A DNA stretch of 64,000 nucleotides from Thermodesulfovibrionales bacterium (GTDB taxonomy: Bacteria; Nitrospirota; Thermodesulfovibrionia; Thermodesulfovibrionales; SM23-35). The position numbers were made by a program, and so were the translations under genes. Below, piece after piece: positions 8,309 through 15,883 of this stretch (within the stretch, counting starts at the first letter, position 1; each line of letters starts with the position of its first letter). The stretch lies in NCBI GenBank assembly GCA_041660325.1, contig JBAZWR010000001.1:702-64701 (forward strand), read 5' to 3'. The notes below the pieces were generated by a model that was given only the letters and a program-made list of their open reading frames with translations, was not told the DNA's origin and searched no databases.

Positions 8309-8542
8309 AATCCAGCAATCTCCGATTCTAAATCTGTAAGTGACAAATTTGGGGTCGGTTAACTTTAGTGAATAATTAATGGGTCAAAGGTTCTTCTACG
8401 CAGTACACCTGCAAGCATGAATAGTTGCATGTGATAAATAATAATTATTTCTATTTGTACTATGTGGTTGTGAGTTAGAAGCTATTTTTCGGCAAGCGAA
8501 AAGAGTGTTTGCGACATCTTTGAAACAAAAAAGTAATTTCTT

Positions 8543-8571
8543 TTGACAAAATTGTCTAAAAATGATATAAA
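8543..8571 (+). promoter_or_regulatory. Sigma70-like promoter plus palindromic operator candidate for the MerR-rSAM operon; leaderless geometry
   Basis: TTGACA (8543-8548) is followed by a 17-nt spacer and TATAAA (8566-8571). The ATG at 8578 lies 6 nt after the -10 element. The palindrome GACAAaaTTGTC (8545-8556) overlaps the -35 element. Confidence 0.45.
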
Positions 8572-8577
8572 TTTAGT

Positions 8578-9021
8578 ATGAATTTTTTCTTTACCGCTCG
8601 ACATATTGAGTCGATTTTCGGCATCAATAGGAAAATACTTTTCTATTGGAAAAAGATCGGACTCATTACTCCATCTGAGCTGACAAATGGAGGCCATGCG
8701 CGCTACACTTTTTCTGATTTAGTCGCGATCAAGACAATAAATGCATTGCGAGACGCAGGTATTAGCACAAACCAGATCAAGAAAAATGTAGTGGCGTTAA
8801 GAAAAGAGTTTCCAAATGCTCAAAACGTGTTGGCGGAAAAATCATTATATGTGGTTGGTAAAGAAATTATCGTGGCTGATTCCATCGCTGGGTTTAATCC
8901 CATTTCAAAGCAATGTACTTTCATAAACAATAATGATATGAAGGCTTGGGTTATCGATATGACAGTGAAGCAATTCTCGATACCAATTAAAGAAGAAAAA
9001 AGAAAAACAGGAACGGGGTAA
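8578..9021 (+). CDS. MerR-family HTH protein with an uncharacterised ~70-aa C-terminal domain
   Basis: The N-terminal wHTH FTARHIESIFGINRKILFYWKKIGLITPS...GHARYTFSDLVAIKTINALRDAGIS is MerR-like. The stop overlaps the next gene's start (TAATG). Confidence 0.7.
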   Translation: MNFFFTARHIESIFGINRKILFYWKKIGLITPSELTNGGHARYTFSDLVAIKTINALRDAGISTNQIKKNVVALRKEFPNAQNVLAEKSLYVVGKEIIVADSIAGFNPISKQCTFINNNDMKAWVIDMTVKQFSIPIKEEKRKTGTG

Positions 9022-10106
9022 TGTTCACTTTAGAAGAATTATGCATTGAGATTACAGGTAAATGTCTTATGCATTGTCGGCATTGTTCGTCCTCTTGCAC
9101 TGAGTCCAATTTATCTTCACTCTCCTATGACTGCATCTTAAGAATTTTCGATGAAGCTCGCCTGCTTGGTACTAAGACGATAGAAATATCAGGTGGCGAA
9201 CCATTATTGCATCCTCGAATTCTGGATATCATAAGAGAAGCAAAGAAGTATTTCGAGGTCCGACTTTATACTTCAGGCTTCCTCGGGGATTGCGAAGGTA
9301 TTCCCACACTATTAATATCTTCTATGGCCTCTCTGGGCCTTGATCGAATAATTTTCAATCTTCAAGGAGCATCTGCTGAAATTCACGAGCAAATTACGAT
9401 GACACCGGGCAGCTTCGAATGTGTGATTGCAAGCATAAGGCAGGCAAAAGCCGCGGGACTATGGACAGGCGTGCATTTCGTTCCGATGCTTCCCAATGTC
9501 AAAGAGATTGGAGCGCTCGCTGAACTTTGTAGGGCATTCCGTGTCGATGAGCTTGCCATTCTTAGATTCGTCAATCAGGGTAGGGGCTCTATTAACAGCG
9601 GCGAGCTTGAACTTGCAAATGGCGATTTCCAGGCTCTAGTAATGGATATCGTTCGAGAGAAGAGAATGAGTGATAGCTTGTACTTAAGAACTGGCTGTCC
9701 GATGAACTTTTGCTCATTTGTTGACAGCGATATTAGACCAGTTAAGTGCAAGGCTGGGTTGTCAACACTGCTTATCAATTTTGATGGTAGAGTTGTGCCC
9801 TGCCCTGCGTTTAAACAAGAACAGGCATTTACGATAGGAAATATTACGCAATCTTCCCTCACCGATCTTTGGCATCACAGCGATCGATTGCGACAACTAA
9901 GAACTTTCGATTTTCGCAGAATTCGTGTATGCAATGAATGCAATAGACTTGATGTTTGTCAGGGGCGTTGTATGGCACAAAGATTTTATGCAACCGGCTC
10001 TATTTATGAAGGCCCTGATCCATTGTGTCCTTATAAACAAGACAAATCATTGTCGAAGAAAAAGGAAATAGGTTCTTCAGTGCTGGAATTTAGTGGGAGA
10101 AAGTAA
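9021..10106 (+). CDS. Radical SAM enzyme with a complete C-terminal SPASM domain
   Basis: A CX3CX2C motif (GKCLMHCRHC) lies at residues 15-22, with SGGEPLL after it. The SPASM signature is exact: C-x12-G-x4-C (CKAGLSTLLINFDGRVVPC), then CX2CX5CX3C (CNECNRLDVCQGRC), then a final Cys (PDPLCPY). Confidence 0.9.
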   Translation: MFTLEELCIEITGKCLMHCRHCSSSCTESNLSSLSYDCILRIFDEARLLGTKTIEISGGEPLLHPRILDIIREAKKYFEVRLYTSGFLGDCEGIPTLLISSMASLGLDRIIFNLQGASAEIHEQITMTPGSFECVIASIRQAKAAGLWTGVHFVPMLPNVKEIGALAELCRAFRVDELAILRFVNQGRGSINSGELELANGDFQALVMDIVREKRMSDSLYLRTGCPMNFCSFVDSDIRPVKCKAGLSTLLINFDGRVVPCPAFKQEQAFTIGNITQSSLTDLWHHSDRLRQLRTFDFRRIRVCNECNRLDVCQGRCMAQRFYATGSIYEGPDPLCPYKQDKSLSKKKEIGSSVLEFSGRK

Positions 10107-10209
10107 GATTCCTTGGCTGGTTGAACACGGCCCCCTTTTTGACTTGCAATACATGACTGAAATTTCCATCTTCAATGGGTTTGTCAATTGTATTTAAAAA
10201 GAGAAATCC

Positions 10210-11745
10210 ATGATTAAGTGCCCAATTGAGTTTGATGATTTAAAACTGCTCAAATTCCTGACAGAAGGCTTTGATGACGCCTCTTTTTTGTCCGGAGAAA
10301 CTCAAAAATATGTGTTAAACATAAAACAAACACTCGGGAAAAGATCTCAAAAGACTTTAAAAAAAAATGGCTTTAAATCTATATTTAACCCATCACGAAA
10401 AGACAGCATTGATGTCCTAGACTTTTGGGAAAGACTAATAATCGATGCAATAAAGTATCTTAAATGGCATGATTCTAAAGAATTTACGAAGCCAGATGAA
10501 ATTGGAGATAAAAAAAATGCGTATGATAAAATCAGCGAGGGCTCTTTAGGCGTATATAATTTAAAAGATTACTTTAAGGCTTTTATTGAATTTGAGCGCT
10601 TACTGTATGGCGCCGAGCAATTCTATCGCGATCATGTATATCATATTTTGAAAGTCTGGCTTATCGGCCAATATATCATAAAGAATATTATGGATTGCGA
10701 TTTTCCTGTCTCGATAGTTGAGGATGATGAAAAACTTGCCTCCAATAAGTTCCCTTGCTCAGCGAAGAATGACGGCACTCTTTATGCTGGTGAGGAAGAT
10801 GCTATCTGGTGTTTGATAGCGTTGACACACGATTTGGGGTATCCACTTAGCAAAGTGGAGAACATAAATACGAGCCTGAGAAAAATGATGCAATATTATG
10901 CTAAAACTGGGCTGGAAGAATTTTCCTTTTCTTTCCCTCAGCAGAATCAGTTCATTAATGACGCAATATTGAAATACATTAGTTCCAGGATTGAGTGTAT
11001 ACCTCGTAAAAATGATTTGGGGAATCACTACGATACTCATATTCAAGCAAAGTTCTACCTCAAGTTTTCTCGATCTTTCGAGCTTTTCAAACACGGTCTT
11101 ATCAGTTGCATAGTTTTGGTAAAGAATCTAATATATTTTCTAGAAACGAATTTTGATCATAATCCTTCAACTAATCTAGGCGACGCAGAAGACGCTCGGC
11201 AATTTGTAATTCGTAGGGAGATTTTGAGAGCAATTGCGTCACATACATGCGAAGAAATTTATCATTTTGAACCTAATTCTTTCTCGTTTATTTTGTTGCT
11301 TGCAGACGAAATACAAACATGGGGAAGACCGACCTTTGAGGATATGGCACTCGGTACTGATAAGCAGTATACTGTGACGCTGAATGAATTCAGCTATAAT
11401 CGAGTCTCATTTACCATGAAATGCAATAAAAAGCGCGGTGAGAAGCCTATCTCTTTGCTTGGGCTTTTCAAAGAAAAAGCGGAATTGTTTAAGAAAATAT
11501 TAAGAGTCGCAGTCGATACATCTCAACGACAATTTACTTTTGATTTTTCCATAATTGACGAATTAGATGAAAAATATGAATTCATTGCGAGGCCGCGCGA
11601 TCGAGCAGAAATGAGAATTAATGGCTCTGAAATTGAACACAGGGATTTGCAAAAGTTAGTGGAGATTCATAAGAAGAATATCTTCGACTTCAAGAAAACC
11701 ACAACAAAATATATCACAAAGTTTAAACTTAAGAAGCGCTCCTGA
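10210..11745 (+). CDS. HD-domain phosphohydrolase-like protein (511 aa) with unassigned N- and C-terminal regions
   Basis: The metal-ligand pattern H...HD...H...D is present: RDHVYHILKV, ALTHDLGYPLS (HD at 10828-10833), FKHGLIS and LLLADEIQTWGR. The HDLGYP context loosely recalls dNTP triphosphohydrolases (HD[IL]G[HN]PPFGH). Confidence 0.6.
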   Translation: MIKCPIEFDDLKLLKFLTEGFDDASFLSGETQKYVLNIKQTLGKRSQKTLKKNGFKSIFNPSRKDSIDVLDFWERLIIDAIKYLKWHDSKEFTKPDEIGDKKNAYDKISEGSLGVYNLKDYFKAFIEFERLLYGAEQFYRDHVYHILKVWLIGQYIIKNIMDCDFPVSIVEDDEKLASNKFPCSAKNDGTLYAGEEDAIWCLIALTHDLGYPLSKVENINTSLRKMMQYYAKTGLEEFSFSFPQQNQFINDAILKYISSRIECIPRKNDLGNHYDTHIQAKFYLKFSRSFELFKHGLISCIVLVKNLIYFLETNFDHNPSTNLGDAEDARQFVIRREILRAIASHTCEEIYHFEPNSFSFILLLADEIQTWGRPTFEDMALGTDKQYTVTLNEFSYNRVSFTMKCNKKRGEKPISLLGLFKEKAELFKKILRVAVDTSQRQFTFDFSIIDELDEKYEFIARPRDRAEMRINGSEIEHRDLQKLVEIHKKNIFDFKKTTTKYITKFKLKKRS

Positions 11746-11816
11746 CAAATGATCATGAAAGAATTTTCTGACATCTCACTTGTGAGCTGTCTCTACTCGC
11801 ATATCGTACCGCGTAG

Positions 11817-12890
11817 TTATTTCATAATGAATTCGTTTATCCCCCATTTCGGCGGATACCAGTAATCTATTGGTTGTGGATTCATGCGATATTTCTGCTT
11901 AATACGCATTCGCCTTGAAAGTCCTTTAAACTGTGGATGTTTTATTCGAGCGTATTTGTCGACTTCACAAAACAGGTTTTGACAGTCTATCAGATGTAAA
12001 GGACGTCCCCAAAGTGTTTGGAACTTAATCCCTAATCGAGAGCACTCTTCTTCTTGACGATCAACCATGCATTTGATTAAATCAATCTCTGATAGGCCCC
12101 CATAGTCTGAAAAGCATTTACGAATGCCGTCCTTCGCACCTGGACCAGGCATAACAAATGAGTTTTCACTATAGTCAATTAATTCACTGTAATTAATATC
12201 AATAGCGTATTGATAAGCGAGAAAATCTCCGATCATTGGGTATCCTCTCAATAATTCAAATACATGTTGCATTGATTTTGCGTTGCAGATATGATTCGGC
12301 AAGTTGTCATGCATCATTTTTTCAATTAGCTTTAAATGATTGCGATGTTTATATTTATGTCCAAAACTTCCGGAGCCAGAAGGCATGATGTAAGCAGCTG
12401 AATAAATGCTACGCCGTTCTTCCAATGCCTTAGTTAAAATCCGGTCATAGTGAATAAAGTCGTATTCTTTATAAGATATTTCCCCAATTTTTTCTCTAAG
12501 CATTTTCCATGTTTCGATTTTGTTAAATGTCTTAAATAAAATAATCCGAAAAAAAACCTCATTAGGACTTTGATCGCCTTCATAAATTACATGTCGAATT
12601 AGATATTGGCTTACTCGATCGGAAGCCCTATAAGCATTTGTAAACTTATAGGTTTGCAGAATGGCATCTTCGGTTAAGCATCCATCATTTCTGTAAAGCC
12701 TATTGAAGAAAATAGACTGTCGTTCGGTTGCAAATTTCCAATATGTATCAAATACTGGGGTTATTTTAGTAGGCAACCACCGGTCATACAAATTTTTTGC
12801 TTTTCCAACTGGGTAAATAGAAGCAGCTTCTCTTCCACCATCAAGCCCTTCGTCGAACAAATTCATAACTATGTCATTGTATTTTTTCAT
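11817..12890 (-). CDS. Homologue of the 'DNA base hypermodification' family (5-hmdU DNA kinase helical domain / aGPT-pyrophosphorylase-like); assigned from memory
   Basis: The block FDTYWKFATERQSIFFNRL...YKFTNAYRASDRVSQYLIRHVIY matches my recollection of proteins annotated as nucleotide kinase domain / putative DNA base hypermodification protein. No P-loop is visible in this ORF. Confidence 0.45.
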   Translation of the reverse strand: MKKYNDIVMNLFDEGLDGGREAASIYPVGKAKNLYDRWLPTKITPVFDTYWKFATERQSIFFNRLYRNDGCLTEDAILQTYKFTNAYRASDRVSQYLIRHVIYEGDQSPNEVFFRIILFKTFNKIETWKMLREKIGEISYKEYDFIHYDRILTKALEERRSIYSAAYIMPSGSGSFGHKYKHRNHLKLIEKMMHDNLPNHICNAKSMQHVFELLRGYPMIGDFLAYQYAIDINYSELIDYSENSFVMPGPGAKDGIRKCFSDYGGLSEIDLIKCMVDRQEEECSRLGIKFQTLWGRPLHLIDCQNLFCEVDKYARIKHPQFKGLSRRMRIKQKYRMNPQPIDYWYPPKWGINEFIMK

Positions 12891-13192
12891 CGCACTCTAT
12901 CATTATTGGAACGTATAAAAGGGGGTACATCCCAATGGTCATATTATAACAGCAGATAATATGGAAGGTATCCCTACTTTCCCTCCAGATGTCTAAATTA
13001 ATAATATTCGATCTTGACTTTGGCATGATAGCAAGAGCTAAAATAGCTCATATTGTTGGGGAAACCCAGATGGGGCATTGCATATCGACCTGAAAAACTT
13101 CGATCTGGCAAATATATCAAATCAAGCAGTTGTGAGGATCTCGATCTTATAATGGCGAGGCAGGCATGGCCAGAGTATAGCGAGGGGATAAA

Positions 13193-13684
13193 ATGAGTGA
13201 CAATAAGACGAAGAACGTTTTCATCAGTCACCACCACAAAGATGATGTCCATGTGGACAAGTTGACAGACTTGCTTGGGAAGAAAGGATTTGAAATAAGG
13301 AATAGTTCCATCCGAGCAAAACCCGCAAACCAGAAGCGTTTAGATAAGGGACTTGTCAAGGATGCAACAATTAAACGTCTGCTCAGAATGAAAATATCTT
13401 GGGCAGGATCGGTTATAGTCCTTATTGGTAAGGAGACCTATTCACGCCCGTGGGTAAACTGGGAAATTGAGCAAGCGCATAGTCAGGGAAAGAAAATCAT
13501 AGGTGTTTACGAGAATGGACTAAAAGACAAAGTTGATCTTCCCCAATCTCTTGAGAAGTATAGCACATCAATTGTTGGCTGGGATTCCGGGGCAATTATG
13601 GCTGCCATTGAAGGCGAACCAATCTTTCAAAACCCTGACGGAACACCTTCACCCCGGAAAGATGGTTCTCATGCTGTATGTTAG
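13193..13684 (+). CDS. ThsB-like TIR-like domain protein (DUF1863/MTH538-type TIR)
   Basis: NVFISHHHKDD and SVIVLIGKETYSRPWVNWEIEQAHSQGKKIIGVYENG align closely with recalled Bacillus ThsB (RVFFSFHYQD ... SVTCVLIGSQTFNRRWVRYEIMKSIEKGNKIIGIHIN). The conserved Glu is included. Confidence 0.75.
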   Translation: MSDNKTKNVFISHHHKDDVHVDKLTDLLGKKGFEIRNSSIRAKPANQKRLDKGLVKDATIKRLLRMKISWAGSVIVLIGKETYSRPWVNWEIEQAHSQGKKIIGVYENGLKDKVDLPQSLEKYSTSIVGWDSGAIMAAIEGEPIFQNPDGTPSPRKDGSHAVC

Positions 13685-14337
13685 ACGAATCCAGAAAATA
13701 CCTCTACATCTATGTTGTCGCTCGAGATTTCGGTTTTGCACCAAACCCTTTTCATGGATACTGCACGTTGGCGACATGTAAACCAGGGATCAGAAAAGTT
13801 GCTCAAATTGGAGACTGGGTGATGGGCGTTGGTGGGGCGCGTTTACATGCGACGGGACGGTGTATATATTTGATGAATGTGTCAGAGATTCTCACTTTTG
13901 ATACATATTGGTCTGATAGCAGGTTTCGAGTTAAAAAACCCGTCCGTAATGGAAGTCCTGTGATGATGGTTGGGGACAACATATACCACAAGAACGTCAT
14001 AACAGGTAAGTGGGTACAAGAGGATTCGCATCATAGCAACCCAGATGGCTCCACGAACATTACGAACCTTCAGACTGATACAATGTCTGTTAATGTTCTT
14101 GTTTCCAGCCACTTCTATTATTTCGGCAGACAAGCTCCTGTTGTGGACCTCTCAGCTATCAATTATAAGAATGTAAGGAACTATGGTAAGAGGTTGATAG
14201 AAGAGGCCAATGTGGTTGCCTTTGTCAATAATATAGAAGACACTTATCGGAGAAAAAGGAACATTGTTATTGCTGACCCTTTTGATTTTGGGCAGGCAGC
14301 AAAGCGAGTCGATCAGGGTTCTGGAAAGATTGAGTGA
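13678..14337 (+). CDS. Nmad2-like protein (nucleotide-modification-associated domain 2 family; from memory), translationally coupled to the TIR gene
   Basis: The N-terminus YLYIYVVARDFGFAPNPFHGYCTLATCKPGIRKVAQIGDWVMG matches the recalled Nmad2 signature (GFAPNPF..CTLA.CKP.IR). Its ATG overlaps the TIR stop by 7 nt. Confidence 0.5.
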   Translation: MLDESRKYLYIYVVARDFGFAPNPFHGYCTLATCKPGIRKVAQIGDWVMGVGGARLHATGRCIYLMNVSEILTFDTYWSDSRFRVKKPVRNGSPVMMVGDNIYHKNVITGKWVQEDSHHSNPDGSTNITNLQTDTMSVNVLVSSHFYYFGRQAPVVDLSAINYKNVRNYGKRLIEEANVVAFVNNIEDTYRRKRNIVIADPFDFGQAAKRVDQGSGKIE

Positions 14338-14393
14338 GTAATACTGAGTGCAGGGCATTGTTCAAGGTTACCGGTTTCTCAACACATTACAAC

Positions 14394-14867
14394 TTAGGCA
14401 TCCTCCATTTCAGTCATATCTTCGACATCCGCCAACTCAGACAACATCCTTGTGTAAGCCCTAAGTTTGTTCTGAAGTTGAAACAGCTCATCTCTAAACT
14501 CAGTACATTTATCTTTATCAATAAAGACTTCCTGTTCACTGAGGCGGTGCCATTTTGCCGTAAAGGGCCTGATAACCTGATTAAGGACTATGATGGCAAT
14601 TTTCGTGAAGTTCTCAGCCTTGCGTCCATGTTCTTTCAGAGTGGTCCTAGTCAACTCAAAGATCTTGTATACGCTTTCAAGCGCAGCCTCTTCTATGCCG
14701 TGCTCTTCCGGTAGTCGTTGTGTCGTAATTCTTGTTAAGAGTTCGACATATAGATCCCATGCTGCATTCTTGTCATAGTCACTTGGTTCCCACTCCATTT
14801 CCAAAATGGGAGTTTTCACCCTGAGGCCGGTCATGCCCCATTTCTCGAAGAGTTCCTTCATTCGCAT
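14394..14867 (-). CDS. Uncharacterised soluble helical protein, overlapping partner of the second TIR gene
   Basis: This is a 157-aa ORF with no TM segments. It has a helical composition and an acidic tail (VEDMTEMEDA). Its ATG overlaps the upstream TIR stop by 10 nt (ATGCGAATGA). Confidence 0.6.
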   Translation of the reverse strand: MRMKELFEKWGMTGLRVKTPILEMEWEPSDYDKNAAWDLYVELLTRITTQRLPEEHGIEEAALESVYKIFELTRTTLKEHGRKAENFTKIAIIVLNQVIRPFTAKWHRLSEQEVFIDKDKCTEFRDELFQLQNKLRAYTRMLSELADVEDMTEMEDA

Positions 14868-15418
14868 TTTCTATCCCCCGTTAGCCATCGTCTTAAAGTG
14901 ATGGCTGTGTTTTCTGTGTGATTCCAAACAATCCATCCATCGTTAGCGGTGACATCCTTAATTTTCCCCCAGACAATGCGTTGGCACAAACCAAGATACT
15001 CTGTCTCGGACCATTTCTGTTCATACGATTTTTCTGCTGTTGGGAACGGGGCGACAGGCCAGTGCCCTTTTTCGCAGTCTGATAGACCCAGCTCCCAAGA
15101 TATCCAGTTACTATCCTTGCTGCTTGTGGTAACAAACAGCAAGGATCTGCTGCAGATTTTGACACTTCCGCGTAAGATGTCCGCTGTTTCTCGATTCGGG
15201 GTATTAGGTAGGCTATCGTCTTCGCTGTCAACGTAGACTCGACCACCATGGTTCTGGAGGATGGAGATAACAGCCGGTAAATGTTCATTATCTTTGGACG
15301 AATGAGAGAGGAACACTTGCTTGCCAGTTAGGGAGCGAGAGGCTTCACTCAAGATAACTGCTTTTTGCAGTTCTCTATTAAAGCGGCTTAAATCATTAAA
15401 AGTGGCAAATTGTGGCAT
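14858..15418 (-). CDS. TIR domain protein
   Basis: The sequence KQVFLSHSSKDNEHLPAVISIL...SLLFVTTSSKDSNWISWELGL shows the TIR hallmarks: an (F/V)FLSH start and W-x-x-W-E-L with the conserved Glu. Confidence 0.75.
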   Translation of the reverse strand: MPQFATFNDLSRFNRELQKAVILSEASRSLTGKQVFLSHSSKDNEHLPAVISILQNHGGRVYVDSEDDSLPNTPNRETADILRGSVKICSRSLLFVTTSSKDSNWISWELGLSDCEKGHWPVAPFPTAEKSYEQKWSETEYLGLCQRIVWGKIKDVTANDGWIVWNHTENTAITLRRWLTGDRKCE

Positions 15419-15883
15419 TTCTCATTCATCACATGTCTGGCCAACTGGTCGTTTTAACCTGCCATTAACTAAATACTGATATCGAAAACGACTGATTCCC
15501 GGCGGTCAGATTGAAAAACGATGGTATCCATGACATGTTCATCAAATAGTTTCCCCTGGTTACTTCCCCACTAAGACAGTAATGTTATACCTTTTCGGTA
15601 AGAGTATCGTCAAGGACGATTGAGAACGTCGCACCGAAAGTCTGAGAAGCGCACCATTTCTTTACTATGTGAAGCCCTTAACTGATACTTAATATGACAT
15701 GTTTGTAACCTCAAATCTAATCTATTACAGTTTATTCCGGTGACTGATGTATTTTTTCCATTTGCCGAGACAAGCGGGTATCTGTTGCTCCTCCGGCAAA
15801 AATAGAGTTTGAAAAGATTTCACAAATTGCGATTGTGGAGAGGAAGGGGTAAAATAGATTATTAAAATTGAAGGAAAAAGCTT

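What the first reader, a model, noticed from the sequence alone, without database searches (positions are those of the whole stretch)
11817..12890. Stand-alone gene resembling the phage thymidine-hypermodification family in a bacterial island
- **The match.** The 357-aa protein carries YKFTNAYRASDRVSQYLIRHVIY and FDTYWKFATERQSIFFNRL. I recall these blocks from proteins annotated as nucleotide kinase domain / putative DNA base hypermodification protein, i.e. the helical domain linked to 5-hmdU DNA kinase and aGPT-pyrophosphorylases.
- **What is unusual.** Here it lacks any P-loop kinase module. It is transcribed divergently from the TIR/Nmad2 pair and convergently with the rSAM/HD cassette.
- **Interpretation (inference).** If the family call is right, host DNA in this organism may carry a non-canonical base modification, or the gene is part of a defence system that senses or attacks modified phage DNA.
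Basis: partly seen in the sequence, partly recalled or inferred. Interest (0 to 1): 0.6.

Follow-up and report, generated by a model that had tools for sequence, protein, structure and literature searches.

The report
Kinase-less HMUDK_hel gene in defence island
This is an intact gene for a DNA-glycosylase-like protein from the family linked to phage thymidine hypermodification, and it sits in a cut-down, previously undescribed version of a recently validated but mechanistically unknown anti-phage gene cluster.

Summary
ORF 11817-12890 (minus strand, 357 aa) matches Pfam HMUDK_hel over the full model (E=5e-111) and has no P-loop domain.

Lacking a kinase is not unusual in itself. Stand-alone forms are the commonest in this large family and also occur in phages.

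The context is what stands out. In 71 well-flanked relatives, 59 have a thymidylate-synthase-like gene and 58 a P-loop kinase nearby. Here both are missing from the locus, and the genome holds only housekeeping look-alikes.

A tree and an 81%-identical relative (L082) show that four upstream genes (ACP-like, XRE-HTH, ImmA/IrrE peptidase, TS-like) were lost secondarily. The gene stayed under purifying selection afterwards (dN/dS 0.11).

What remains is TIR, Nmad2, HMUDK_hel, radical-SAM and an HD-like protein. The same five genes form one tight operon in a distant lineage (L171). Three of them match the E. coli system DS-4, which gave weak phage protection.

The predicted fold is an HhH DNA glycosylase. 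Its nearest structures are the phage amino-acid:DNA transferase PUGT and the queuine-salvage enzyme QNG1.

Defence involvement is likely; self-DNA modification is unlikely. The protein's own chemistry is untested anywhere. Earlier agents of this scan linked this same island to DS-4.

The parts
11817..12890 (-). HMUDK_hel gene (357 aa, P0001). Residues 1-36 are predicted disordered; residues 44-348 form an HhH-glycosylase-like helical fold.
   Evidence: PF18723, E=5.4e-111; pLDDT 88.5, pTM 0.85; Z=10.2 to PUGT and QNG1, then more than 20 HhH glycosylases; dN/dS 0.11 against L001.
12943..12951 (-). Extended -10-like element TGTTATAAT, about 53 nt upstream of the ATG at 12890. L001 has TGGTATAAT at the same place. 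Possible own promoter.
   Evidence: read directly from the sequence. The consensus scan did not list it because there is no -35 hexamer. This is an inference only.
13193..13684 (+). ThsB-like TIR gene, divergent from HMUDK_hel.
   Evidence: PF08937, E=1.6e-22; PADLOC ThsB, E=1.5e-58. Co-occurs with HMUDK_hel in 16 loci.
13678..14337 (+). Nmad2 gene, overlapping the end of the TIR gene.
   Evidence: PF18753, E=1.5e-68. Adjacent to HMUDK_hel in both genomes of a 401-genome phylum sample that carry both families.
14394..14867 (-). 157-aa ORF (cluster c11), conserved next to TIR genes in at least 9 related loci. Has no Pfam match.
14858..15418 (-). Second TIR (ThsB-like) gene.
   Evidence: PDLC00436, E=5.9e-52.
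10210..11745 (+). 511-aa HD-like protein (HVYH...THDLG signature), convergent with HMUDK_hel and paired with the rSAM gene.
   Evidence: sequence; no Pfam match; rSAM plus this protein follow HMUDK_hel in L131, L146-148 and L171; the pair also lies beside it, upstream or inverted, in L134, L137, L139 and L082.
9021..10106 (+). Radical-SAM/SPASM enzyme of the clade that is linked to HMUDK_hel.
   Evidence: PF04055, PF13186. (lies directly downstream of HMUDK_hel in many relatives). (clade-coherent: 8 changes against 24.6 for shuffled labels).
8578..9021 (+). MerR-family regulator heading the rSAM/HD cassette.
   Evidence: Shared with L001 and L082. dN/dS 0.04-0.06.

Best explanation
The gene encodes an intact, selected HMUDK_hel protein. 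This is a helix-hairpin-helix DNA-glycosylase-fold module of the kind that binds duplex DNA and flips a pyrimidine into a conserved polar pocket.

Across bacteria this protein is the constant hub of a mobile, modular nucleotide-modification cassette. The usual layout is ACP-like, XRE-HTH, ImmA/IrrE peptidase and a TS-like enzyme, then HMUDK_hel with or without a Tmk-like kinase. One of MazG/MazG_C, a second TS-like gene, a dCTP-deaminase-like gene or rSAM+HD follows, and TIR-Nmad2 is repeatedly added.

The window carries a reduced derivative. The regulatory genes and the TS-like gene were lost, no kinase is present, and the remaining unit is TIR, Nmad2, HMUDK_hel, rSAM and HD-like protein (plus MerR, a second TIR and c11). 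This is a relative of the validated E. coli system DS-4.

Inferred mechanism, not shown: within this unit HMUDK_hel is the component that recognises or processes a C5-substituted uracil (5-hmU-type base) in invading DNA. It is not a kinase. It works with the rSAM/HD chemistry and the TIR-Nmad2 arm to block phage replication.
For: - **Family and integrity.** PF18723 over the full model. Every family-invariant residue is kept. dN/dS is 0.11 at dS 0.70 against L001, which shares the same reduced layout.
- **Fold.** The model is confident. The top 26 VIA hits are all from the HhH-glycosylase superfamily, led by PUGT at Z=10.2, and Z then drops below 4. Foldseek ranks the same hits on top, though weakly. 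PUGT flips thymidine out of dsDNA (PMC11472151).
- **Not the kinase part.** SP10 gp186 is an HMUD1 kinase plus HMUDK_hel, and its kinase domain alone still makes 5-PmdU (PMC8989533).
- **Same pocket with or without a kinase.** 105 positions are shared at 90% or more across the kinase-fused, kinase-less and MazG_C groups, and none is group-specific. 35 of them, mostly polar or aromatic, persist in distant viral homologues.
- **System membership.** DS-4 is TS, kinase, HMUDK_hel, TIR and Nmad2, and it was validated. DS-4 protein fragments align to P0001 at E=3e-10 and E=2e-15.
- **Partner statistics.** TIR+Nmad2 is present in 12 of 71 well-flanked loci and forms 12 separate groups on the tree. 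Both genomes of a 401-genome sample that hold both families have them within about 1 kb.
- **The five-gene set recurs.** In the distant locus L171 the same five genes form one operon with overlapping ORFs.
- **Secondary loss.** L082 architecture, collinearity, tree.
- **Accessory gene.** 0 of 100 other sampled genomes of the order carry the family.
Against: - No biochemical activity of any HMUDK_hel domain has been measured.
- DS-4 protection was weak: about 0.9 log against lambda, with smaller plaques. No single-gene requirement was tested.
- The window lacks two of DS-4's five genes.
- The TIR block and the rSAM/HD/HMUDK_hel block have very different divergence from L001 (dS 0.05-0.2 against 0.7-0.8), so they may be two neighbouring systems.
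- Nmad2 occurs without HMUDK_hel in 7 of 9 genomes.
- Most partner enzymes in relatives (Tmk-like, MazG, dCTP-deaminase-like, TS-like) normally act on free nucleotides, and QNG1, a nucleotide glycosylase, scores as well as PUGT.
- PADLOC has no model that hits this protein.
Confidence: 0.6

Rival explanations
1. The protein acts on free nucleotides or nucleosides rather than on DNA. Like QNG1, it could cleave or transfer a modified base on a mononucleotide. In that case it would shape an antiviral or signalling nucleotide pool together with rSAM/HD and TIR.
For: QNG1/DUF2419 matches at Z=10.2 and 10.1, equal to PUGT. Fusion and operon partners in relatives are Tmk-like dNMP kinase, MazG/MazG_C, dCTP-deaminase-like and TS-like enzymes. 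TIR enzymes make or consume nucleotides, by established knowledge of Thoeris.
Against: The characterised relatives in phages (5-HMUDK fusions, PUGT/AADT) work on polymeric DNA. An HhH-like hairpin (YPMIGDFLAYQ) is invariant.
Confidence: 0.2
2. Two unrelated neighbours. HMUDK_hel with rSAM/HD (and MerR) is one module, TIR-Nmad2 (plus TIR2 and c11) is a separate defence system, and the two merely share a defence island.
For: Divergence from L001 is mosaic. TIR+Nmad2 is scattered in 12 groups on the HMUDK_hel tree, close to the shuffled expectation. Nmad2 occurs without HMUDK_hel in 7 of 9 genomes. Most HMUDK_hel loci (59 of 71) lack TIR-Nmad2.
Against: The L171 operon has overlapping TIR, Nmad2, HMUDK_hel and rSAM ORFs. 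DS-4 was cloned and scored as one five-gene unit. When both families are in one genome they are adjacent. L068 and L070 pair HMUDK_hel with TIR-Nmad2 and nothing else from the panel.
Confidence: 0.15
3. Self-DNA hypermodification. The gene helps install a non-canonical thymidine derivative in the host's own DNA or in a mobile element's DNA.
For: The family takes its name from phage T-hypermodification enzymes. Relatives carry the full logic of a phage pathway: TS-like enzyme, kinase and dNTP-pool enzymes. XRE plus ImmA is a typical mobile-element switch, by established knowledge of ICEBs1 ImmR/ImmA.
Against: The window and its genome lack any system-type TS-like hydroxymethylase, HMUD1 kinase or TET/JBP, so no route to 5-hmdU was found in a genome that is 92.7% complete. 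The gene is linked to TIR genes. DS-4 has a defence phenotype.
Confidence: 0.07
4. Functionless relic. The gene is a leftover of a larger operon that lost its upstream genes.
For: The ACP, HTH, ImmA and TS-like genes were lost. In L001 the neighbouring Nmad2 is split by a 2.3-kb insertion.
Against: The ORF is intact and keeps all invariant residues. dN/dS is 0.11 over dS 0.70 accumulated after the shared loss. A conserved extended -10 element lies upstream. L171, L068 and L070 are independent loci that also lack a TS-like gene and a kinase.
Confidence: 0.06

Closest known systems
DS-4 (working ID NTTI) of DefensePredictor, E. coli (DeWeirdt, Mahoney & Laub, Science 2026; PMC13092281)
   Same: It contains a stand-alone HMUDK_hel protein (340 aa), a TIR protein and an Nmad2 protein, with TIR followed by Nmad2. 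Its HMUDK_hel aligns to the window protein at the same motifs, with 33% and 45% identity on two fragments. It gave experimentally scored phage protection.
   Different: DS-4 also has a TS-like gene and a separate dNMP/adenylate-type kinase. The window has neither. Instead it has MerR, rSAM/SPASM and an HD-like protein, plus a second TIR and c11. Its HMUDK_hel is on the opposite strand to TIR-Nmad2. DS-4's mechanism is unknown.
Phage 5-hmdU DNA kinases (5-HMUDK), e.g. SP10 gp186 and M6 gp54 (Lee et al. 2018 and 2021; PMC5889632, PMC8989533)
   Same: SP10 gp186 carries the same HMUDK_hel domain at residues 313-598. ViI-type and M6-type phages have homologues at about 22-25% identity.
   Different: The defining activity lies in an HMUD1-type P-loop kinase domain, which is absent here and in the whole genome. 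The kinase domain alone suffices in vitro. The phage genes accompany a dUMP hydroxymethylase, which is absent here.
aGPT-Pplase / amino-acid:DNA transferases, structure PUGT gp46 of PaMx11 (8z2m; PMC11472151)
   Same: It is the best structural match, at Z=10.2 with 228 aligned residues. It has a glycosylase-like helical fold that binds dsDNA and flips the target thymidine.
   Different: Identity in the structural alignment is only 7%. There is no Pfam aGPT-Pplase hit and no profile-level sequence link to the PDB. Transferase activity is untested for HMUDK_hel.
HhH-GPD DNA glycosylases (Mag1, AlkA, OGG, EndoIII, MutY) and QNG1/DUF2419
   Same: They share the fold, with Z from 5 to 10 over about 170-240 residues across more than 20 consecutive hits. 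An invariant hairpin-like GDFLAYQ motif is followed by a Gly/Pro-rich PGPGA loop.
   Different: There is no detectable sequence homology. The catalytic Asp or Lys equivalents could not be assigned. D254, which follows the Gly/Pro loop, is conserved in the 58-sequence stand-alone alignment but did not pass the 90% filter in all three bacterial groups.

Membership tests
Pfam PF18723 HMUDK_hel | HMM score above the gathering cut-off over most of the model | tested here: met
   370.9 bits against a cut-off of 25, covering model positions 1-281 of 281. Confirmed on the genome.
[quoted passage not shown] | P-loop kinase domain (HMUD1/HMUD2 type), either fused or encoded in the same locus | tested here: not met
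   P0001 has no P-loop family match. PF18748 was not found in the genome, which is 92.7% complete. Only a housekeeping Tmk-like ORF exists, on contig C62. SP10 gp186 shows what the true architecture looks like.
[quoted passage not shown] | Co-occurrence with a dUMP hydroxymethylase (TS family) that supplies 5-hmdU | tested here: not met
   There is no TSc1 or TSc8 homologue in the window. The only PF00303 hit is a weak 236-aa ORF on contig C40.
aGPT-Pplase / AADT | Match to the Pfam aGPT-Pplase1/2/3 models | tested here: not met
   The full Pfam-A scan at E<=0.01 returned only HMUDK_hel and one sub-threshold chance hit.
aGPT-Pplase / AADT | PUGT-like fold | tested here: met
   VIA Z=10.2, rmsd 4.2 A, 228 aligned residues to 8z2m_A, the top hit of 48,161 chains. 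It is also the top Foldseek hit, though weak at E=0.089.
DS-4 defence system | HMUDK_hel, TIR and Nmad2 genes clustered together | tested here: met
DS-4 defence system | TS-like gene and dNMP/adenylate-type kinase gene in the same cluster | tested here: not met
   Tree and synteny point to secondary loss of the TS-like gene and to a kinase-less subclade.
DS-4 defence system | Protection against phage | not testable with these tools
   Only DS-4 itself was assayed, giving about 0.9 log against lambda with smaller plaques.
HhH-GPD DNA glycosylase superfamily | HhH glycosylase fold | tested here: met
   More than 20 consecutive glycosylase hits at Z 5-9, clearly separated from unrelated rows at Z<4.
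HhH-GPD DNA glycosylase superfamily | Catalytic Asp (with or without Lys) after the HhH and Gly/Pro loop, and glycosylase activity | tested here: inconclusive
   D231 is invariant. D254 follows PGPGA but is not conserved at 90% in every group. No residue-level superposition was available, and activity has not been assayed.

The most novel reading that the evidence does not exclude
HMUDK_hel is itself an enzyme, either a DNA-base transferase or a glycosylase of the HhH fold. In this kinase-less and TS-less TIR-Nmad2-rSAM-HD system it would directly recognise and chemically attack C5-modified thymidine or uracil in phage DNA, or with the rSAM write a lesion into it. That event would be coupled to TIR signalling. 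This would be an immune system aimed specifically at phages with hypermodified DNA, built from the phages' own modification enzymes.
Probability: 0.15. Interest if true: 0.8.

Novelty: new variant of a known kind. Interest (0 to 1): 0.5.

Why it matters
HMUDK_hel is a large family: 3,684 clusters at 50% identity. Its own activity has never been measured, in phages or in bacteria.

This locus, together with L171, L068 and L070, shows that the domain is kept under selection without any kinase or thymidylate-synthase partner. Its role therefore cannot simply be to target a kinase.

It also defines a compact, clonable five-gene unit (TIR, Nmad2, HMUDK_hel, rSAM, HD). That unit could reveal how the DS-4 class of nucleotide-modification defences works.

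It could further show whether bacteria turn phage DNA-hypermodification chemistry against phages. Enzymes that read or edit 5-hmU-type bases in DNA are also of practical interest for sequencing base modifications.

Tried and rejected
- **NCBIfam and PADLOC.** Neither has a model that hits the protein.
- **Sequence searches of the PDB.** Both the single sequence and the 58-sequence profile found nothing real, so the link to PUGT and the glycosylases is structural only.
- **Phage hypermodification rSAMs.** The island's rSAM gave only 6 weak hits in 50,697 phage records, none to M6 or ViI types. I dropped that link.
- **Remnants of the lost genes.** tblastn and hmmsearch --max on spacer 12800-13300 found no trace of the lost upstream genes. 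The loss is therefore inferred from synteny and the tree, not from remnants.
- **Spacer ORF.** ORF 12998-13252 (minus strand, 84 aa) is broken in L001 and is rejected as a gene.
- **Misreading corrected.** I first took cluster c11 to be the second TIR. It is the 157-aa minus-strand ORF 14394-14867. The overlapping 126-aa plus-strand ORF is probably spurious.
- I reached close homologues through the metagenome and viral contig scans instead.
- **Paper not held.** Iyer et al. 2013, the original computational description, is not in the library.
- **Sampling caveat.** Related loci were found with peptide patterns from this protein, so the neighbourhood statistics describe relatives that are mostly 50% identical or more. 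Short contigs give false absences.
Full report
**1. Observation**

ORF 11817..12890 lies on the minus strand and encodes 357 aa (P0001).

[quoted passage not shown] No P-loop family and no aGPT-Pplase family matches. PHROGs gives phrog_2396, of unknown function. NCBIfam and PADLOC give nothing.

- A ThsB-like TIR (13193-13684) and Nmad2 (13678-14337), transcribed divergently.
- A MerR, rSAM/SPASM and 511-aa HD-like cassette (8578-11745), transcribed convergently.

The gene is single-copy in a MAG of 2.85 Mb that is 92.7% complete.

**2. How common the family is and what form it takes**

An exhaustive search finds 3,684 cluster representatives (50% identity) at E<=1e-3, and 566 at E<=1e-30.

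Close homologues, at 52-85% identity, occur in Nitrospirota, Cyanobacteria, Chloroflexota, Planctomycetota, Acidobacteriota, Poribacteria and others. They also sit on plasmids, where PGAP names them 'nucleotide kinase domain-containing protein'.

Architectures:
- Stand-alone proteins of about 320-370 aa are the commonest.
- Others carry an N-terminal Tmk-like kinase (PF02223).
- Others carry a C-terminal MazG/MazG_C extension.

Phages also encode stand-alone forms. A ViI-type Salmonella phage has a 401-aa protein next to a MazG-like gene. Brevibacterium phage LuckyBarnes has gp38 next to a 517-aa TS homologue and two glycosyltransferases. The absence of a kinase domain is therefore not unusual in itself.

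The family is sporadic. It was found in 0 of 100 other sampled genomes of the same order and in 5 of 401 genomes of the phylum.

**3. Neighbourhoods**

I fetched 78 genome loci, 80 metagenome loci and 41 viral-contig loci. I clustered all flanking ORFs without prior labels, then scanned them with HMMs built from the clusters.

The canonical cassette runs in this order:
- an ACP-like gene,
- an XRE-HTH regulator,
- an ImmA/IrrE M78 peptidase,
- a 270-aa TS-like protein (no Pfam hit; PGAP calls it thymidylate synthase),
- HMUDK_hel, with or without the Tmk-like kinase,
- then one of MazG+MazG_C, a second TS-like gene (PF00303), a dCTP-deaminase-like gene, or rSAM/SPASM with or without the HD-like protein.

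Cyanobacterial versions add a 4'-phosphopantetheinyl transferase and DUF1643.

Counts among the 71 non-viral loci with at least 3.5 kb on both sides:

| Partner within 7 kb | Loci |
|---|---|
| TS-like gene | 59 |
| P-loop kinase (Tmk-like or MazG_C) | 58 |
| XRE-HTH plus ImmA | 49 |
| TIR plus Nmad2 | 12 |
| rSAM | 11 |
| Neither TS-like gene nor kinase | 5 (3 of these have TIR plus Nmad2) |

On the HMUDK_hel tree, rSAM and MazG_C are clade-coherent, with 8 and 12 parsimony changes against about 25 and 60 for shuffled labels. TIR+Nmad2 falls in 12 separate groups, so it is a repeatedly recruited or lost add-on.

In a 401-genome phylum sample, Nmad2 occurs in 9 genomes and HMUDK_hel in 5. Two genomes have both (this one and G298), and in each the two genes lie within about 1 kb.

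**4. This locus is a reduced derivative**

L082, an 81%-identical metagenome relative, has TIR, Nmad2 and c11 on one side and p511, rSAM and MerR on the other, exactly as here. It also keeps the ACP, HTH, ImmA and TS-like genes directly upstream of HMUDK_hel.

The window DNA is collinear with L082 from MerR up to the 5' end of HMUDK_hel, and homology stops there. With L001 (a Thermodesulfovibrionales MAG, 85% identical) it is collinear across the whole island, including the 300-bp spacer.

On the tree, the window and L001 are sisters. They nest inside an rSAM-linked clade in which the four upstream genes are otherwise universal wherever the contig is long enough to show them. The upstream block was therefore lost before the window and L001 lineages split. 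The spacer holds no remnant of it.

Since that loss, HMUDK_hel has accumulated dS=0.70 at dN/dS=0.11. It also retains every family-invariant residue.

A conserved extended -10 element lies 53 nt upstream of the start codon: TGTTATAAT at 12951-12943 here, TGGTATAAT in L001.

The genome has no system-type TS-like, Tmk-like, MazG_C or DCD gene elsewhere, only weak housekeeping matches. It also has no HMUD1 kinase and no TET/JBP.

The same five genes (TIR, Nmad2, HMUDK_hel, rSAM, HD-like) form one co-directional operon with overlapping ORFs in L171. That IMG/VR contig is only 42% identical and sits far away on the tree. L068 and L070 (Poribacteria) pair HMUDK_hel with TIR, Nmad2 and c11 and with no TS-like gene or kinase.

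**5. What the protein is**

AlphaFold2, run with a 58-sequence alignment, gives pLDDT 88.5 and pTM 0.85. Residues 1-36 are disordered.

VIA-align against 48,161 PDB representatives gives these top hits:
- 8z2m, PaMx11 gp46/PUGT, the 5-PmdU glycinyltransferase and an aGPT-Pplase: Z=10.2.
- The queuine-salvage glycosylase QNG1/DUF2419: Z=10.2 and 10.1.
- More than 20 HhH DNA glycosylases (Mag1, AlkA, OGG, EndoIII, NTHL1, AGOG, ROS1, MutY, MBD4, TAG): Z from 4.3 to 8.9.
- Unrelated rows follow at Z<4.

Foldseek puts the same hits on top, but weakly. There is no sequence-level bridge to any solved structure.

PUGT binds dsDNA and flips the target thymidine into its pocket (PMC11472151).

SP10 gp186 is an HMUD1 kinase (residues 35-193) plus HMUDK_hel (residues 313-598). 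Lee et al. 2021 report that a C-terminal deletion leaving the kinase domain alone still makes 5-PmdU. The helical domain is therefore not the phosphotransfer part, and its own role is untested even in phages.

Conservation is the same in kinase-fused, kinase-less and MazG_C-linked members: 105 shared positions and none that is group-specific. Thirty-five positions persist in distant viral homologues, including R57, D75, N85, R88, D91, R115, K181, D231, E242, D302, E309 and K312. That pattern looks like an active site rather than a passive scaffold; this is an inference.

**6. Link to defence**

DefensePredictor (PMC13092281) validated DS-4 ('NTTI') of E. coli. Its five genes are a thymidylate synthase homologue, an adenylate/dNMP-type kinase, a stand-alone HMUDK_hel (340 aa), a TIR and an Nmad2.

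Protection was modest, at about 0.9 log against lambda with smaller plaques, and individual genes were not dissected.

Two fragments of the DS-4 HMUDK_hel printed in the supplement align to P0001 at the conserved motifs (E=3e-10 and E=2e-15). [quoted passage not shown] Those resemble the canonical cassette described above.

I found no other functional work on the bacterial proteins.

**7. Interpretation**

Shown:
- Family membership, integrity and purifying selection.
- The HhH-glycosylase-like fold.
- The modular neighbourhood and the secondary loss of the upstream block.
- Recurrence of the five-gene set.
- Homology to three of DS-4's five genes.

Inferred:
- The protein flips a C5-substituted uracil in DNA.
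- It works together with rSAM/HD and TIR-Nmad2 as one anti-phage unit.

Self-modification of host DNA is unlikely, because no route to 5-hmdU was found. The relic reading is unlikely, given the selection. Action on free nucleotides remains a serious rival, and so does the possibility of two independent neighbouring systems.

**8. Relation to earlier notes of this scan**

Agents working on the adjacent findings e1-2137327 and e1-2137328 reached the DS-4 link for this same island. I had reached it independently from the paper's supplement, and I checked the 'weak protection' statement myself.

Note e1-2137329 made me re-identify cluster c11 as the minus-strand 157-aa ORF.

New here:
- The family-wide cassette architecture.
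- The evidence that this locus is a secondary reduction that is still under selection.
- The L171 operon.
- The fold assignment of HMUDK_hel.
- The point that the domain is dispensable for kinase activity.

Noticed in passing
L001:4532-6832 (point matching window 13931-13934): In the closest relative, the Nmad2 gene is split by an insertion of about 2.3 kb. The rest of the island is collinear with the window.
   Followed up: partly
window 13131-15622 compared with 8509-13135: The island is a mosaic. The TIR1-Nmad2-c11-TIR2 block is 93-95% identical to L001 (dS 0.05-0.2). The MerR-rSAM-HD-HMUDK_hel block is only 71-85% identical (dS 0.7-0.8). This suggests recent exchange of the TIR block. TIR2 shows dN/dS of about 1, based on few changes.
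   Followed up: partly
window 14334-14714 (+) and 14394-14867 (-): Two ORFs overlap here. The 157-aa minus-strand ORF (cluster c11) is conserved next to TIR genes in at least 9 loci. The 126-aa plus-strand ORF finds almost nothing and is probably spurious.
   Followed up: partly
window 12998-13252 (-): This 84-aa ORF in the spacer is broken by stops and frameshifts in L001, so it is not a gene.
   Followed up: yes
L010, L014, L095, L099, L104 and other cyanobacterial loci; NC_019739.1 (L080): The canonical HMUDK_hel cassette includes an ACP-like gene, and often a 4'-phosphopantetheinyl transferase and DUF1643. A carrier-protein link to a nucleotide or DNA modification cassette is unexplained.
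   Followed up: no
L203:2330-3535 (Salmonella phage LPST94) and L204:3501-4355 (Brevibacterium phage LuckyBarnes): These phages encode uncharacterised stand-alone HMUDK_hel proteins. One lies beside a MazG-like gene. The other lies beside a 517-aa TS homologue and two glycosyltransferases, which hints at an undescribed glycosylated hm-pyrimidine pathway.
   Followed up: partly
L171:6868-11508: An IMG/VR contig carries TIR, Nmad2, HMUDK_hel, rSAM and the HD-like gene as one operon with overlapping ORFs. I did not check whether the contig is really viral or a prophage.
   Followed up: partly
G356:C2:878219-879053: A genome of the same order has HMUDK_hel split into two adjacent fragments (model positions 1-115 and 100-279), which is probably a frameshifted copy.
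   Followed up: no
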